This document shows positions 33,001 through 39,000 of a stretch of 42,718 nucleotides of DNA, in pieces. Source of the stretch: an uncultured bacterium (GTDB taxonomy: Bacteria > SAR324 > NAC60-12); NCBI GenBank assembly GCA_964010765.1, contig CAXGMD010000018.1:1-42718 (forward strand). The letters are read 5' to 3'. The position numbers are program-made. Position 1 is the first letter of the stretch; each line of letters starts with the position of its first letter.

Positions 33001-36000
33001 TGACTGGCTCAATTCATCCAGCTGAAGAAGTGACTGATCAAGATTCTCTAAAAGTGCCGTGCAACCAGGGTCCATTCTTTCAGCATCTTGCAACTGCCTT
33101 TTCAAACTACTCAGTACCTCTACGATAGATCCATCCTCTTCATAAAGAATGGTCTGCATTCCTCCATAGAGGTTGAGAAGTTGTTCTGCATGAGCAAGCA
33201 TTTTGGACTCTGTCTCAAGGTCATCCATCTCTTGCGGTTCCAGGTTGAGACTGGAAAGCTCTTGAAACTGCGCCTCCAGAAGCATCTGTCGATCCGTACG
33301 GTTTGCTAACCTTTCCTGCCACTCTTCCTGCTCACGTCGCTTCTTAGTCCATTTTTTATGAACTTCACGGAGTGCATCTCTTGTTGGGAATAGATTGCCG
33401 AAGGCATCCAAAAAATCTAAATGACGAGAGGAATCAAGAAGTGCTTGGTTATCGTGTTGGCCGTGGATATGAACAAGTCCTCGACCAACTTCTGCCAAGA
33501 AACCCTGAGTGACAGAAATGTCGTTGAGAAAGCGTTTCTGGCGGTTATTAGTGTTGAGCACTCGGCGGATCAATAGTTCATTTTCATGAGGTATATCCGA
33601 TTCACTAAGCAATAGCTTCAATTCAGTTTGTTTTGAAATATCAAAGGCTCCCTCCACAAGTGCTTGTGAGGAACCTGGTCGAATCAAACCAAAATCAGCA
33701 CGATCCCCCAAAAGTAATTGAAGACCATCAATCATGATCGATTTTCCTGCACCGGTTTCTCCCGTCATGATGGAAAAACCATCAAAAAAATCGATTTCTA
33801 GATTCTCAATTGTCGCTAAATTCTGAATCCGCAAATGCAGCAGCATAATTGCTCATTCTTGATTCAGTAGAGGTCGTCTAGGGAAGAGATCACGTTATCA
33901 GCGATTAAACGGAAGGCTTCTGCAGCAGGGCTATCAGATGGGGCTTGGTTCATGAGAGGCTTACCCAGATCACCTCCTTCCCGAACGGCTAGTTCCAAAG
34001 GAATGGCACCAAGAAAAGGTACTTCGTATTTGCGGCAAGCTTCTTCAGCGCCATGTTGGCTGAAGATCGCGGTTTTTTCACCACAATGAGGACAAGCAAA
34101 GTAGCTCATATTTTCAACAATGCCCACGATGGGAATATCGACCTTGGAAAACATTGTGATTGCTTTATAAGCATCCACTAAGGCCATGTCTTGTGGAGTC
34201 GAAACAACAACTGCACCGGCCAACTCACAGAACTGTGAGATGCTGAGTTGAACATCCCCAGTTCCTGGAGGCATGTCGATAATCATTATATCACCACCTG
34301 GCCAGGCTGTATCTCGCAAGAGTTGTTCTACTGCCTGATGAACCATCGGCCCTCTCCAGACCATTGCAGCCTCATCATCAATCAGATTACCAATCGACAT
34401 CGCATGTAAACCCATCACCTCCAGCGGCATTAGGTTTTCTTCCCGTAGTTCAGGTTTCACTCCCCGTAGACCCGTCATAATTGGGAAACTTGGACCATAA
34501 ATATCTGCGTCAAAAAAACTTACACTAAATCCTTTTTGCTGAAGGGCTAGTGCTAAATTTAGAGATACTGTCGATTTTCCAACCCCACCCTTGCCACTGG
34601 CAACGGCTAACACCGCATCATAATTTTGAAGATAAGCGGTTCTTTGAGGTTGTCGAGCCTGTCTGCTCTTCTCTGATTCGGGTATCGAAGCCTTATTTTC
34701 TTCTGGTTCATCATCAATGGGAGCCTTTTCCAAGACTTCAACCGCCACGCGCGAAATACTTGGTAAGTTCCGGATATTCTCCTCAATCTGCGTTGGGAGT
34801 ATTTGACGCAACCTCGACTCTAAAGGCAGAACAATCGTGAATTTGGCGAAGTCATTGTTGACCACACAGCTATGCACAATCTCTGTTTCAGGAAGAGGCC
34901 TTCCGTCAACTTCGATTTCAGCCAGAACAGACGTAAATTGTTGTTCCAATGATTCCATGATTGCTTCCTTCAGGGAGCAGAGGTTTTGTAAGCGACATGA
35001 ATTGTCGAGGCACCAAATACAAAATCGTAGTAGTCAGCCTGTTGGAAGCCGACTTCAAGTAGTTTCCGCTTCAGGGTTTCTTGATCGGGATACTTCAAAG
35101 AAGACTGAGGAAGATAGGTGAACATTTCCTGATCAGGCATTAGCCATTCACCAATCTTTGGGACAACTGTGAAGAAGTAGAAACGGTTCAAAACATCTAT
35201 CAATGGCAACCGTACTTTTCCCACATCCAGACTAACCAAGACCCCCCCTGGTTGCAAGATGCGCCTTATCTCCAAGAGTCCCTTCGTGAGATCATCAAGG
35301 TTACGCAGTCCATAACCAATCGTCACCGCAGCAAACCATTCATCTGGGAAAGGAAGGCGAAGGGCATCCCCTTGGATCCATTGGACTGAGTCAACTTTTG
35401 CCCGATCTGCAGCGATTTCCAACATGGATCCAGCAAAATCGACCCCTGTGACTACTGCATCAGGATGCTGCTTGGTGACAGCCCTAGCAATGTCTCCAGT
35501 TCCACAACAGAGATCCAGGCAACGTTCTCCTTCCCGAAGACCCGTCTGACGAGCAACAAAACGCTTCCAATAACGGTGCATTCCAAAGGTAATGAGGTCA
35601 TTAAACCGGTCATACTTCAACGCAATTTCATTGAATTTGCTGCTAACGTATTCGGCTTTCTTGTCAGTCGATGGGAGTTGGTAGTTCAATGGCTTATTGA
35701 GGGAGGATACAGAACAAGTTGTCTAGAAAGCAGTTCAAGAGCAGAGATCGCAAAACGAATTTGGTGTTCCTGTTTGGTGAAGAATGGATTTTCCTGAACT
35801 ACCTCATGAATCGTCTCATATGGCTGCTCTGTCAATTCTGATTTTTTTACAAGCACCAGGTGGCAGACCCCATTCTTGTTGCTACGCAAGGTTCCATCAG
35901 GAGGACCTGCCATCCCGTTTTCAGCGAGCACCATGTTTGCTTCAGTATTTCCCATTGCAGCCAAAGCCATCTCCTTTGTCAATTCCTCTGACAGGCTTGA

Positions 36001-39000
36001 TTCGTGTTGCCCCAAAAATCTCCCAATCAATTGCTCCTTGGTAGAATTGGCATAAGCGACCTGAGAGCCAAGAACGAATTTGGACGAGCCAGGTAGCCCA
36101 ATCAAGGACCCTGCTATCCGTCCGCCAGCGCTTGTTTCCAGAAAATAGATCTTCGGAGGATTTTTTCTCTCAAATAGCTGACGAGAGACCTTTAGACTGA
36201 TTTCTAGGAGATCTCTCTCTAGTTCCTGAATCCTGACTTCCCACTCACTAACTTCAGCAATTTTCTTTGAGACGCTACCCCCAAGATGCTCCTCAAGATG
36301 CTCAATTGCCTTGTCAGGCAGATAAGCGGGCAGTTGCTGTCTGAAGCATACAGCTCGACGAATTATCGTTGAGGAAAGATTTAGATAGCTTTTAAGTGCC
36401 ATGGGCAGAAGATCAGGATCTAGAATTTTCTGTTTCAGAGACAGACCCTCAGCAAAAGTATCCACAATTCGCTCCCCCGGCCTAGGTACTACCAACAGTT
36501 CCGCCAAGTTTGACATCTCTTGCAAATCTGCTTCTGAAAATATTTGGGGATCCCGCATTCTGTTGATCAAGTCACTACCGACCAACACCTGAATCCGCTG
36601 ACTTTTGTACTCGCTATCAGACCAGAGAGCTGTCCCAATATTTTTGACATTATCCAAAAGTCTAACCTGGTGATCCCTCTTAAATTCACTGCTTGAAACG
36701 AATAACTCGACTTGGCGAAGACGAAGAATTTCTCCAACATGATCAGAAATGACGATGAGTCGATTTCCATAACTTTGAAGTAGACTTTCAAGCAAGTCTT
36801 GCATCAGTTGGAGACGGATATCCTTGGGGAGGGTTACTGATCTTTTGAAAGGATCAGGATGATGACCATTAGAGAGGAGGTAAACGACCTTCGATAATTC
36901 AGGTCGTTGCCTTAAGGCCAACTCAGCCAATACGAGGTGGTGATAGCCTGCCGGATTTCCAGTGATGGGAACAAATAGGGTATTTCGGAAATCAGCATTC
37001 TCCGGGCAGGGAGATTCAATAATTCTGGGATTCACTTGCAAAAAGTTAGGCTGCTGATTCAGCCTGAACTTGATTCTGTAGCATCAGCAAATTAAGCATT
37101 TTCAGTGTAGCATTAACCGCTGCCATCACTTGATCGCCATCCACACCAATCGTTTGGAGTCGACGTTCACCCATCTTCCAGGTAATCACGGCCTCGGTCA
37201 AAGCATCAGTTTTTCCACTTCTGGGAATCCGGATTTCATAGTCCACCAAGTCAGGACAAATAATTTGACGGCGTTTGAGGATCTTCTTGACGGCATTCAT
37301 AAAAGCATCGTATCCACCAATACCTGAACCTGCTTCCGTGTATTCCTTCTCGTCCCAACTCAAGCAGACGGAAGCTGTGGACTTAAGATTTAAACCACTC
37401 TGGATGCTGCAACCCTCCAAACGCAAGCGTTGATTGACGTTGTCATCCAAGACATCCGTAACAATGAAGGGCAAATCTGCTGGAGTCAGATTTTTCTTTG
37501 AGTCCCCCAACTGGACGATTCTTTCGAGTACTTTTCTCAGATTTTCCTCAGAAAGCTGTAGACCCAGAATCTCCAGATTTTTGACGAGAGACGCTTTGCC
37601 ACTCATTTTTCCGAGTGCATAACTTCGAATTCTTCCAAAACGCTCTGGCTGAATTGGATTGTGATATAGTCCTCCTTTTCTGTCCCCATCGGCGTGAATT
37701 CCACTTGTTTGGGTGAAAACATCGGTGCCCACTACAGGGGAATTCGTTGCCAATCTCTTACCTGAGAAGGTCTCGATCATCTCGCTAACTGGTACCAGGC
37801 TCGTTTCGTCAATGCTGAGGTGAACTCCCAACTTATCACGAAGAACTACTGAAATTTCAGCAAGGGAGACATTGCCTGCTCTTTCACCGAGGCAGTTCAT
37901 TGTGCAGTGCAGGTTACGAATTCCAGCTTTGACTGCGTATAGACAGTTGGCGGTGGCCAAACCATAGTCGTTATGAGGATGAAAATCGATATTCGCCCAT
38001 GGGAATCTCGAAGTCATATCTTTCAAGCTATCAAAGACTTCATCTGGAGATAGTACTCCGAGGGTGTCTGGGAGCATAATGTGCTTGATATCCAATCCTT
38101 CCAAGTGCCCCATTAGGTTATAGACATACTCTGGCTTATCTCGATAACCATTTGACCAATCCTCGAGATATATATTGACCTGCAAGCCTCTACTTTGGGC
38201 GTATTCGACCGTTAGGCGTATGTCCGCAGCGTGTTCTTCAAGTGTTTTCCGAAGCTGATTCTTGCAGTGATTTTCACTTCCCTTGGTTAGCAGATTCAGT
38301 ACTCTGGCACCTGAGTCGAAAATCCAGTCGACGCTTCTCTTGTGATCACAAAAACCGAGCACCTCTACTCGGTCCAGAAACCCTTGGCCACTTGCCCAAT
38401 CTGCTATGTTTTGAACAGCTTCTTGTTCTCCCTGGGAGATTCTCGCTGAAGCAATTTCGAGCCTATCAACCCCAACTCTCTGAAGCAGAGCCTTCGCAAT
38501 ATTCATCTTCTCAGAGGGTGTAAACGAGACTCCTTGAGTCTGCTCCCCATCACGAAGAGTTGTGTCCATTAAAGAAATATGTTCACCAGCGAGATCCATT
38601 GCTTGATCCTTCTAAGAAATTCTTAAAAATCAGACTTTACCACGCTCTTACTATGTGTGGCAACCGCTCTTTAAATTTTTACTCAATCTTCCTCTTCTTG
38701 CTTGAGGGTCTGAAATTCCAAGCCCTTGAATTCCCAATGAGCAGAGGGTTCCTGTACCAAGGCAAGTACGACCTCAAAGATCTGGACCTCATCATCTTGA
38801 TTTACTCTGAAACGAACTCTGGAATCTTCTGCATCTTCCCTGAAATCAAGATGTAATTCTGGCTCTTCCAGTTCAAGTCCTGCAGCCTTCAATTCTAGGT
38901 ATCTTGAATCTTCCTTGACTACCTCATAGGCCACTTGAAAAGCTGAGGTCTTGCGCATGTTTGGTTGCTGCAGACCCAAGGCAATGACGAAGAAACCAAA

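What a model noticed while it worked through the whole genome (the two positions that open the first line are those of the whole stretch)
35686..37035. Order-wide fusion of an NMN/NaMN adenylyltransferase domain to NMN deamidase PncC
g01124, annotated only as CinA, is an N-terminal NadD/NMNAT-fold domain fused to PncC, joining two consecutive NAD-recycling steps (NMN to NaMN to NaAD). The usual MocF partner of PncC is a separate gene (g00977).
Evidence so far: Fusion-length frames in 25 of 25 order genomes, 0 of 4 others. Profile hits: CinA/PncC on the C-half (E 1e-13), NMNAT and NadD on the N-half (best E 1.5e-6). Model pLDDT 86; Foldseek finds PncC (TM about 0.8) and many NadD/NMNAT structures (E 6e-7 to 7e-6, TM 0.7-0.78). 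Invariant T19, G30, H33, S221-T223.
(Added by a program. Inside this text positions count along the whole contig: contig position 1 is position 1 of the stretch shown here. "Call 12" and the like, gene names such as g00115 and contig names such as C1 are that model's own, and its searches are not shown. The text may have been shortened before it was handed on; [...] marks where a part breaks off. The agent that wrote the report below was given it as the finding of a first reader that could run no searches.)

Follow-up and report, generated by a model that had tools for sequence, protein, structure and literature searches.

The report
SAR324 NMNAT fused to altered PncC
This gene, found across one order of SAR324 bacteria, joins a probable NAD-making enzyme to an altered NMN-binding domain, and in about 25 related genomes it is the only recognisable candidate for making NAD, which suggests an undescribed way of getting this essential cofactor.

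Summary
The fusion is real: a NadD/NMNAT-fold domain followed by a PncC/CinA-fold domain (pLDDT 91; Z about 20-22 for each half). It matches in 62 of 64 genomes of the SAR324 order and 0 of 24 in other orders.

The proposed two-step role (NMN to NaMN to NaAD) is not supported as a general function. 27 of 64 order genomes show no stand-alone NadD, NAD synthetase or PncB, so NaAD would be a dead end; 26 of them keep the fusion. The PncC half keeps its phosphate/ribose pocket and purifying selection, but 29 of 59 copies lack the Ser(Thr)/Lys pair. The N-half keeps the essential His, Asp and Lys in an unusual GxHH/GxNH motif.

Best reading (0.55): an NMN adenylyltransferase making NAD directly, with an NMN-binding module. 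Residual deamidase in this copy (Thr/Lys kept) is not excluded. No NMN source was found in 24 of the genomes.

Six earlier scan notes describe an opposite-order fusion family on other DNA. It is distant in both halves, so probably an independent fusion. No activity was measured.

The parts
35686..37041 (-). Fusion gene, 451 aa (449 aa from the GTG at 37035)
   Evidence: full-length homologues
36277..36993 (-). NadD/NMNAT-fold domain, residues about 17-255
36937..36969 (-). ATP-binding motif region, residues 25-35: GxHH here (GxHH 40, GxNH 19 of 59) in place of (H/T)xGH; G32 and H35 invariant
   Evidence: aligned to E. coli NadD residues 11-19
36844..36873 (-). Family signature loop SNGxHPDPxK, residues 57-66; K66 aligns with E. 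coli NadD R46
36526..36579 (-). Pyridine-binding segment, residues 155-172: D157 (NadD D109), R161, F168 (human W169), D172 (human D173); carries the 5-residue insert seen in eukaryotic NMNATs
36358..36375 (-). SxxxxR motif, residues 223-228
35713..36258 (-). PncC/CinA-fold domain, residues about 262-443
36121..36138 (-). ETSAGG, residues 302-307; T303 stands at the Ser nucleophile position
36082..36090 (-). G318-S320, phosphate-binding block (AtCinA G46/S48)
36037..36054 (-). Y330-K335 (AtCinA Y58/K63); Lys is Gln in 23 of 59 copies
35902..35922 (-). E374-P380; N375 stands at AtCinA T105; E374 is a family-specific conserved residue
35752..35775 (-). K423-F430; K423 stands at the phosphate-binding Arg (T. 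thermophilus R377); H426 and F430 are family-specific conserved residues
37046..38599 (-). Upstream neighbour, citramalate-synthase-like (CimA/LeuA family); conserved upstream in several genera, no known NAD link
34970..35689 (-). Downstream neighbour, UbiE/MenG methyltransferase, overlapping the fusion's stop by 4 bases; not conserved beyond close relatives

Best explanation
The protein is a housekeeping pyridine-nucleotide adenylyltransferase of the SAR324 order that accepts the amidated substrate: NMN + ATP give NAD + pyrophosphate in one step. Its PncC-fold half still binds NMN or NaMN but deamidates weakly or not at all, and acts as a capture or regulatory module. In genomes with PncA-PncB-NadD-NadE, such as the window's, it would recycle NMN released by NAD-dependent DNA ligase. 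In about 25 genomes that lack NadD and NadE it would be the NAD-forming step itself. Shown: folds, residue states, distribution, purifying selection, gene absences by search. Inferred: every activity, the substrate preference and the role of the C-half.
For: (1) Residues that matter in E. coli NadD mutants (PMC1249556 section 6) are kept in 59 copies: T11 as T/S 59, D13 as N/D 59, H19 as H 59, R46 as K 59, D109 as D 59; SxxxxR S 58, R 59. (2) A bulky residue at the Gly of HxGH is compatible with activity: human NMNAT1 reads TNMH, and a review gives the motif as (H/T)XXH with the second His essential (PMC12470169 section 5). (3) The pyridine-binding segment has the eukaryotic insert, F at W169 and D at D173 (57/59); eukaryotic NMNATs accept NMN and NaMN. 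(4) 27 of 64 order genomes show no stand-alone NadD, NadE or PncB; 8 of them are at least 90% complete; NAD kinase is found in 26 of 27 and NAD-dependent ligase in 5 of 5 tested. In 9 of 10 examined, the other HxGH-family genes are CoaD, RfaE/HldE and RibF types only. (5) G020 has NAMPT, no NadE and no other adenylyltransferase found, so NAMPT plus this protein completes a route to NAD. (6) C-half: S31A and K63A abolish AtCinA activity (PMC5384747); 23 of 59 copies have Gln for Lys, 6 more have Ala/Gly/Asn for Ser, and only 2 have exact Ser plus Lys. The pocket residues G46 57, S48 59, Y58 59 and R145 as R/K 58 are kept, and dN/dS is 0.19 even in the Lys-to-Gln genus. (7) Six NadE-less genomes keep Thr/Lys, where an active deamidase would drain NMN into a dead end.
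Against: The first His/Thr of the ATP motif is Gly in 59 of 59, the usual Gly and Phe before it are L/I/V and G/A, NadD H45 is not kept, and W169 is Phe; W169 mutation kills human NMNAT1. The N-half scores far below the NadD cut-off (37.5 against 112 bits). The eukaryote-like grouping was 94/83 with a long-branch warning and collapsed when more families were added; profile comparison ranked a bacterial NadD set above the eukaryotic set (E 3e-28 against 3e-23, both sets chosen by this profile). No NAD gene was found among 57 neighbouring frames scanned. No NMN source was found in 24 of the NadD/NadE-less genomes, so the route is incomplete. G040 has its own NadM-Nudix, so it lends no support. 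22 of 59 copies keep S/T, K, S/T and R/K together, and Lys is kept in 30 of 34 copies from genomes with NadD or NadE. Absences rest on incomplete assemblies and about three independent losses (4 changes on the tree, 2 forced by strong branches).
Confidence: 0.55

Rival explanations
1. Bifunctional enzyme: the C-half deamidates NMN with a Thr/Lys pair (or Lys-activated water) and the N-half adenylylates NaMN to NaAD. This would hold in NadE-bearing genomes such as the window's, with deamidase lost later in some lineages.
For: The pocket is intact. Lys is kept in 30 of 34 copies from genomes with NadD or NadE against 6 of 25 without. It is the only PncC-fold gene found in G000, and its appearance coincides with decay or loss of the MocF-PncC that other orders keep intact. 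One proposed mechanism uses Lys plus Thr and water, not Ser (PMC4246079).
Against: It would be a dead end in 26 fusion-bearing genomes without NadE. The Lys/NadE correlation has only 2 independent pairs (sign test p=1). The window's copy has Thr for Ser and Asn for the Thr needed in the water mechanism. Six copies keep Lys with no hydroxyl nucleophile. G000 already has a canonical NadD.
Confidence: 0.2
2. The N-half is not an NAD-forming enzyme: it transfers a nucleotide to another acceptor or is a nucleotide sensor, and the NadD/NadE-less lineages import NAD whole.
For: The ATP motif is remodelled in all copies. The gene persists beside a canonical NadD in most of the 34 genomes that have one. 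It has no NAD gene neighbours. No precursor route was found in 24 genomes.
Against: All 45 aligned N-halves match NadD models and only one matches another nucleotidyltransferase model weakly. Profile similarity to CoaD is far lower (E 6e-6). The partner domain is an NMN-pocket fold. No NAD carrier was found, though that search had a silent control.
Confidence: 0.17
3. The C-half has gained a new catalytic activity that supplies NMN to the N-half from an imported precursor, making the protein a two-step amidated NAD synthase.
For: Family-specific conserved residues E374, S387, K389, H426 and F430 (56-58 of 59); selection persists after Lys loss; no NMN source found in 24 genomes; the one genus-g2 genome with NAMPT has an in-frame deletion of about 60 residues in this domain.
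Against: No chemistry of that kind is known to me for this fold. The new residues may be structural, and their positions in the model could not be inspected. E374 is shared with stand-alone PncC-like proteins. The deletion is a single assembly.
Confidence: 0.08

Closest known systems
NadD / NMNAT pyridine-nucleotide adenylyltransferases (E. coli NadD 1k4k; human NMNAT1 1kqn and NMNAT3 1nup)
   Same: Fold (Z 18-20.6), second His, catalytic Asp, basic loop residue, SxxxxR; eukaryote-like insert in the pyridine-binding segment.
   Different: GxHH/GxNH for (H/T)xGH, Phe for Trp, signature SNGxHPDPxK, below all NadD cut-offs, a separate clade (100/99) not close to the order's own NadD, and fused to a PncC fold.
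PncC / CinA C-terminal NMN deamidase (A. tumefaciens 2a9s; T. thermophilus CinA 4ct8/4uoc)
   Same: Fold (Z 19-21.9), E30, G35, G46, S48, Y58, G106, AGP and a basic residue at R145.
   Different: Ser nucleophile mostly Thr, Lys is Gln in 23 of 59, new conserved E374/S387/K389/H426/F430; partner is an adenylyltransferase, not MocF/COG1058.
Uncharacterised CinA-like to NadD-like fusions in the opposite order (earlier scan notes; 18 viral-contig members aligned here)
   Same: The same two folds in one chain, PncC half degenerate; shared Pro before the ATP motif and often an Arg/Asp-Pro after GxD.
   Different: Opposite order; intact HxGH; each half is more distant from the SAR324 halves (E 3e-8 and 1e-10) than NadD/NMNAT or PncC sets are (E 6e-14 to 3e-28; 1e-22). 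Independent origin is likely, but the tree is unresolved.
Stand-alone PncC-like subfamily with Glu before the TG/SG block (SAR324 family f2, Chloroflexota)
   Same: The f2 members are sister to the fusion's C-half (98/93); both sets share the Glu.
   Different: Single domain, keeps Ser (most); function unknown to me.

Membership tests
NadD/NMNAT | Nucleotidyltransferase Rossmann-like fold | tested here: met
   VIA Z 20.6 (rmsd 2.6, 202 aligned) to 1nup; 20.1 to 3e27
NadD/NMNAT | (H/T)xxH motif, first residue His or Thr | tested here: not met
   Gly in 59 of 59
NadD/NMNAT | Essential second His, catalytic Asp, basic loop residue, SxxxxR | tested here: met
   H35, D157, K66, R228 59 of 59; S223 58 of 59
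NadD/NMNAT | Trp stacking on the pyridine ring (human W169) | tested here: inconclusive
   Phe in 59 of 59; aromatic but not Trp
Bacterial NadD equivalog (TIGR00482) | Score over the curated cut-off | tested here: not met
   37.5 bits against 112.45; best fusion 67.6 bits
NadD/NMNAT | NMN or NaMN adenylyltransferase activity | not testable with these tools
   needs an assay
PncC NMN deamidase | CinA/PncC fold and Pfam PF02464 | tested here: met
   59.4 bits against 23.5; Z 21.9
PncC NMN deamidase | Phosphate/ribose pocket G46, S48, Y58, A108, G109, R145 | tested here: met
   57, 59, 59, 57, 56 of 59; R145 as Arg 38 or Lys 20; Lys in the window's copy
PncC NMN deamidase | Ser nucleophile (S31) | tested here: not met
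   Thr 48, Ser 4, Ala 2, Gly 2, Asn 2, gap 1; Thr in the window's copy
PncC NMN deamidase | General-base Lys (K63) | tested here: inconclusive
   Kept in the window's copy; Lys 36, Gln 23 of 59
PncC NMN deamidase | Ser/Thr at 105 | tested here: inconclusive
   Asn in the window's copy; Thr 34, Ser 15, Asn 7, Ala 1, gap 2
PncC domain (TIGR00199) | Score over the curated cut-off | tested here: not met
   40.7 bits against 68.9
PncC NMN deamidase | NMN deamidase activity; dimer with shared active site | not testable with these tools
   activity needs an assay; no dimer prediction was run
CinA (MocF-PncC) | N-terminal MocF/COG1058 domain | tested here: not met
   no PF00994 match; N-half is NadD-fold
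Opposite-order CinA-like/NadD-like fusion family | PncC-like domain first, PGSFNPxHxGH-type motif | tested here: not met
   order reversed, motif differs, low cross-scores

The most novel reading that the evidence does not exclude
Several free-living SAR324 lineages have lost every recognised NAD route (nadA, pncB, nadV, nadD, nadE, nadM) and make NAD with this one protein, a new adenylyltransferase subfamily with a GxHH/GxNH motif, from NMN supplied by an unidentified uptake or salvage step. The PncC fold has been recruited as a non-deamidating NMN module a second time, independently of the opposite-order fusions.
Probability: 0.45. Interest if true: 0.78.

Novelty: new variant of a known kind. 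Interest (0 to 1): 0.62.

Why it matters
NAD is essential, yet 25 fusion-bearing SAR324 genomes (7 of them at least 90% complete) show no standard NAD-forming enzyme. This protein, annotated only as CinA, is the one candidate, so a pathway gap becomes a single enzyme assay. If right, it adds an adenylyltransferase subfamily with a remodelled ATP motif that standard cut-offs miss, implies that these bacteria depend on an amidated precursor (NMN, nicotinamide riboside or NAD) from their surroundings, and gives a second case of a PncC fold joined to an adenylyltransferase without its catalytic pair. If wrong, the gap itself still needs explaining.

Tried and rejected
Loss of the phosphate-binding Arg: my first alignment put R145 at Q427. 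T. thermophilus numbering shows R377 is the first Arg of the helix motif, which is position 423, kept as R/K. Rejected and corrected.

Steric block of ATP binding by His at the HxGH Gly: weakened, since human NMNAT1 has Met there.

Eukaryotic origin of the N-half: 94/83 with a long-branch warning, unresolved after adding families. Not claimed.

Duplicate of the order's own NadD or CoaD: scores 14 and 17 bits or less against the N-half profile. Not supported.

Domain-swapped member of the opposite-order family: low cross-scores. Not supported, not excluded.

Co-evolution of Lys loss with NadE loss: 2 independent pairs, not significant.

NMN source in NadE-less genomes: PnuC gave 5 weak partial hits in 64 genomes, 4 with stops; NadR-type kinase gave only weak P-loop hits in 5 genomes; NadC 0 of 5; TLC carriers 0 of 5 with a silent control, so uninformative.

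Members outside SAR324: none in viral contigs; only C-half matches in phages and plasmids; no N-half match with another named phylum in genome contigs (motif-seeded, so distant copies can be missed).

Gene neighbours: no NAD link. Promoter and terminator scans were at chance level.

Expression: contigs from three RNA libraries cover most or all of the gene, one spanning 35025-36870, but contigs do not show transcription and no silent control was laid. Inconclusive.

Atlas: only own-family clusters scored 0.95 or more; the C-half alone scored 0.82 or less.
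Full report
Observation. The frame 35686-37041 (minus strand, 451 aa) lies between a CimA/LeuA-family gene and a UbiE-family gene in a run of same-strand housekeeping genes. 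Source names of close homologues identify the organism group as SAR324. The C-half matches Pfam CinA over its cut-off; the N-half matches NadD models below cut-off. A model built on a 45-sequence alignment has pLDDT 91 and pTM 0.89. It aligns with PncC/CinA chains over model residues 260-427 (Z up to 21.9) and with NMNAT and NadD chains over 1-241 (Z 20.6 and 20.1, a tie).

Distribution. Of 88 genomes in the phylum, 64 are in the window's order. 62 of these match through the N-half; the two misses are 54% and 89% complete. Of 24 genomes in other orders, 14 match the C-half only and 10 not at all; those orders mostly carry an ordinary CinA-family gene (two checked as MocF-PncC). I aligned 59 of the 62 as single frames. 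Left out were G053 and G008 (contig ends) and G028 (an in-frame TGA near the end of the N-half). An N-half profile against 1.84 billion representatives gave 33 hits at E<=1e-30, then a gap to ordinary NadD/NMNAT from 1.6e-12. All 15 new hits of 414 aa or more in the top group carry the C-half; the shorter ones are partial, and I cannot tell whether any is a true stand-alone N-half. A motif-seeded scan of 185,579 species gave 78 loci: 60 with the N-half (titles: 20 SAR324, 3 Lambdaproteobacteria, 15 Deltaproteobacteria, 9 proteobacteria, 13 unspecific) and 18 stand-alone C-half relatives. The fusion arose once (C-half clade 100/97, N-half clade 100/99).

N-half. Against E. coli NadD the ATP motif HxGH reads GxHH (40) or GxNH (19). 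The missing Gly is not fatal in itself: human NMNAT1 has Met there. The missing first His/Thr is a real departure, since a review assigns it a beta-phosphate contact (PMC12470169, section 5 read). Residues whose mutation cripples E. coli NadD (PMC1249556, section 6 read: T11A 2%, H19A 0.62%, D109A 0.038%, R46A worst) are kept as T/S, H, D and K in 59 of 59; H45 is not kept; N40 aligns with the conserved S57/N58. The segment after GxD carries a five-residue insert shared with eukaryotic NMNATs and absent from the bacterial NadD rows shown, with Phe at W169 and Asp at D173. That D173 helps recognise the NMN amide is recalled, not read here. Trees do not resolve the nearest family.

C-half. In AtCinA, S31A, K63A and R145A are inactive and T105A keeps 6% efficiency (PMC5384747, passages). 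Across 59 copies the pocket is kept (G46 57, S48 59, Y58 59, A108 57, G109 56, R145 as R/K 58). The catalytic positions vary: S31 is Thr 48, Ser 4, other 7; K63 is Lys 36, Gln 23; T105 is S/T 49, Asn 7. 29 copies lack the pair; 22 keep a hydroxyl, Lys, S/T and a basic residue together. The window's copy has T303, K335, N375, K423. Pairwise dN/dS for the C-half is 0.185 in the Lys-to-Gln genus (59 pairs kept by a dS filter of 0.1-1.5; G020 left out), 0.19 in the window's genus and 0.19 in g9+g12, like the N-half (0.19-0.25). So the domain is maintained after losing its general base.

Pathway context. This is the main new result. Stand-alone NadD was found in 34 of 64 order genomes and NadE in 35 by family search, plus fragments in one more by protein search. 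27 have neither: 18 of 18 in g2, 3 of 3 in g9, 3 of 3 in g12, 2 of 3 in g11, and G040. None of the 27 has PncB; one has NadA; two have NAMPT; NadC was absent in the 4 tested. The same searches detected weak paralogues at 20-50 bits in most of these genomes, NAD kinase is in 26 of 27 and NAD-dependent ligase in 5 of 5, so incompleteness alone is an unlikely cause. I examined the other HxGH-family genes in 10 of the 27: nine have only CoaD, RfaE/HldE and RibF types (by motif; four confirmed by family scan), and G040 has a NadM-Nudix. For the other 17 I have only counts (1-4 each). 26 of the 27 carry the fusion. Without NadE, NMN to NaMN to NaAD cannot yield NAD, and deamidation would waste NMN. 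Setting aside G040 and the fusion-less G034, the fusion is the only NadD-fold protein found in 25 genomes. The window's own genome has PncA, PncB, NadD and NadE, no NadA or NadC, and no other PncC.

Mechanism. Most likely (0.55) the N-half makes NAD from NMN and ATP and the C-half binds NMN without efficient deamidation. A non-NAD role for the N-half (0.17) and a new NMN-making activity in the C-half (0.08) are the other rivals. The weak point of the best reading is that no NMN source was found in 24 of the 25 genomes.

Relation to known systems. Nine literature searches listed no paper on an adenylyltransferase-PncC fusion or on missing NAD genes in SAR324; the library lacks most subscription papers, including the original PncC papers, which I did not see. 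PMC3855486 (passages and section 17 part 1) says CinA is occasionally fused to other domains and did not analyse them; its figure was not visible. PMC3680494 (passages), PMC4246079 (passages) and PMC9316036 (passages) describe no such fusion in what I read. No supplements were opened; they may list domain architectures. Automated annotation does see both halves in some copies: one JGI name gives both, and one Atlas cluster has PF01467 on 23% of members. Six earlier scan notes describe a PncC-like plus NadD-like fusion family on other DNA, four of them saying the deamidase half lacks catalytic residues; a sequence look-up found none like this protein. I retrieved 65 viral loci by motif, of which 28 had a long N-terminal part and 18 were aligned. 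Their order is opposite, their HxGH is intact, and both halves are more distant from the SAR324 halves than ordinary NadD/NMNAT and PncC sets are. A few shared residues and an unresolved tree leave common ancestry open.

Verdict. A real, order-restricted fusion of two known folds, each remodelled. It is a new variant of a known kind, not a shown member of NadD or PncC. The interest lies in the NAD-pathway gap that the protein may fill: 0.62.

Noticed in passing
G000:C13:43650-44198 (L072); L080, L081, L083, L085, L086: CoaD of family f1 has an unusual ATP-loop start (YPTSxNPP instead of YPGSFDP), paralleling the change in the fusion's N-half; two CoaD from another order are canonical.
   Followed up: partly
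L062:2386-3582 (G020): Fusion with an in-frame deletion of about 60 residues removing the AGP block, in the only g2 genome that has NAMPT; may be an assembly error.
   Followed up: partly
L028:2185-2187 (G028): In-frame TGA near the end of the N-half separates the two domains; error or nonsense change.
   Followed up: partly
L251:2795-5196 (G060): Adjacent nadD and split nadE unlike those of the order (NadD groups outside the phylum's NadD); transfer or bin contamination.
   Followed up: partly
L063-L069; L208-L225: Stand-alone PncC-like proteins with Glu before the TG/SG block; the SAR324 f2 ones mostly lack the catalytic Lys and are sister to the fusion's C-half, most Chloroflexota ones keep Ser and Lys.
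   Followed up: partly
L097-L109: Thirteen order genomes sampled carry a second CinA-like gene whose PncC domain has lost its motifs; 7 checked have MocF in front.
   Followed up: partly
G000:C9:39968-40708 and G000:C15:20851-21603: Two stand-alone MocF/COG1058-type genes; the second has a FAD-synthase middle domain.
   Followed up: partly
L142:1408-2139 (G027): The only isochorismatase-family gene found in this PncB-less genome has no NCBIfam match at 1e-8 and lies beside corrinoid/methyltransferase-like genes.
   Followed up: no
L043, L045, L048: A metallophosphoesterase gene lies near the fusion in three f2 genomes; a D-Ala-D-Ala carboxypeptidase is divergent from it in several f2 genomes.
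   Followed up: no
window 26986-28425 (+): 479-aa frame upstream of modABC-like genes with no Pfam match over cut-off.
   Followed up: no
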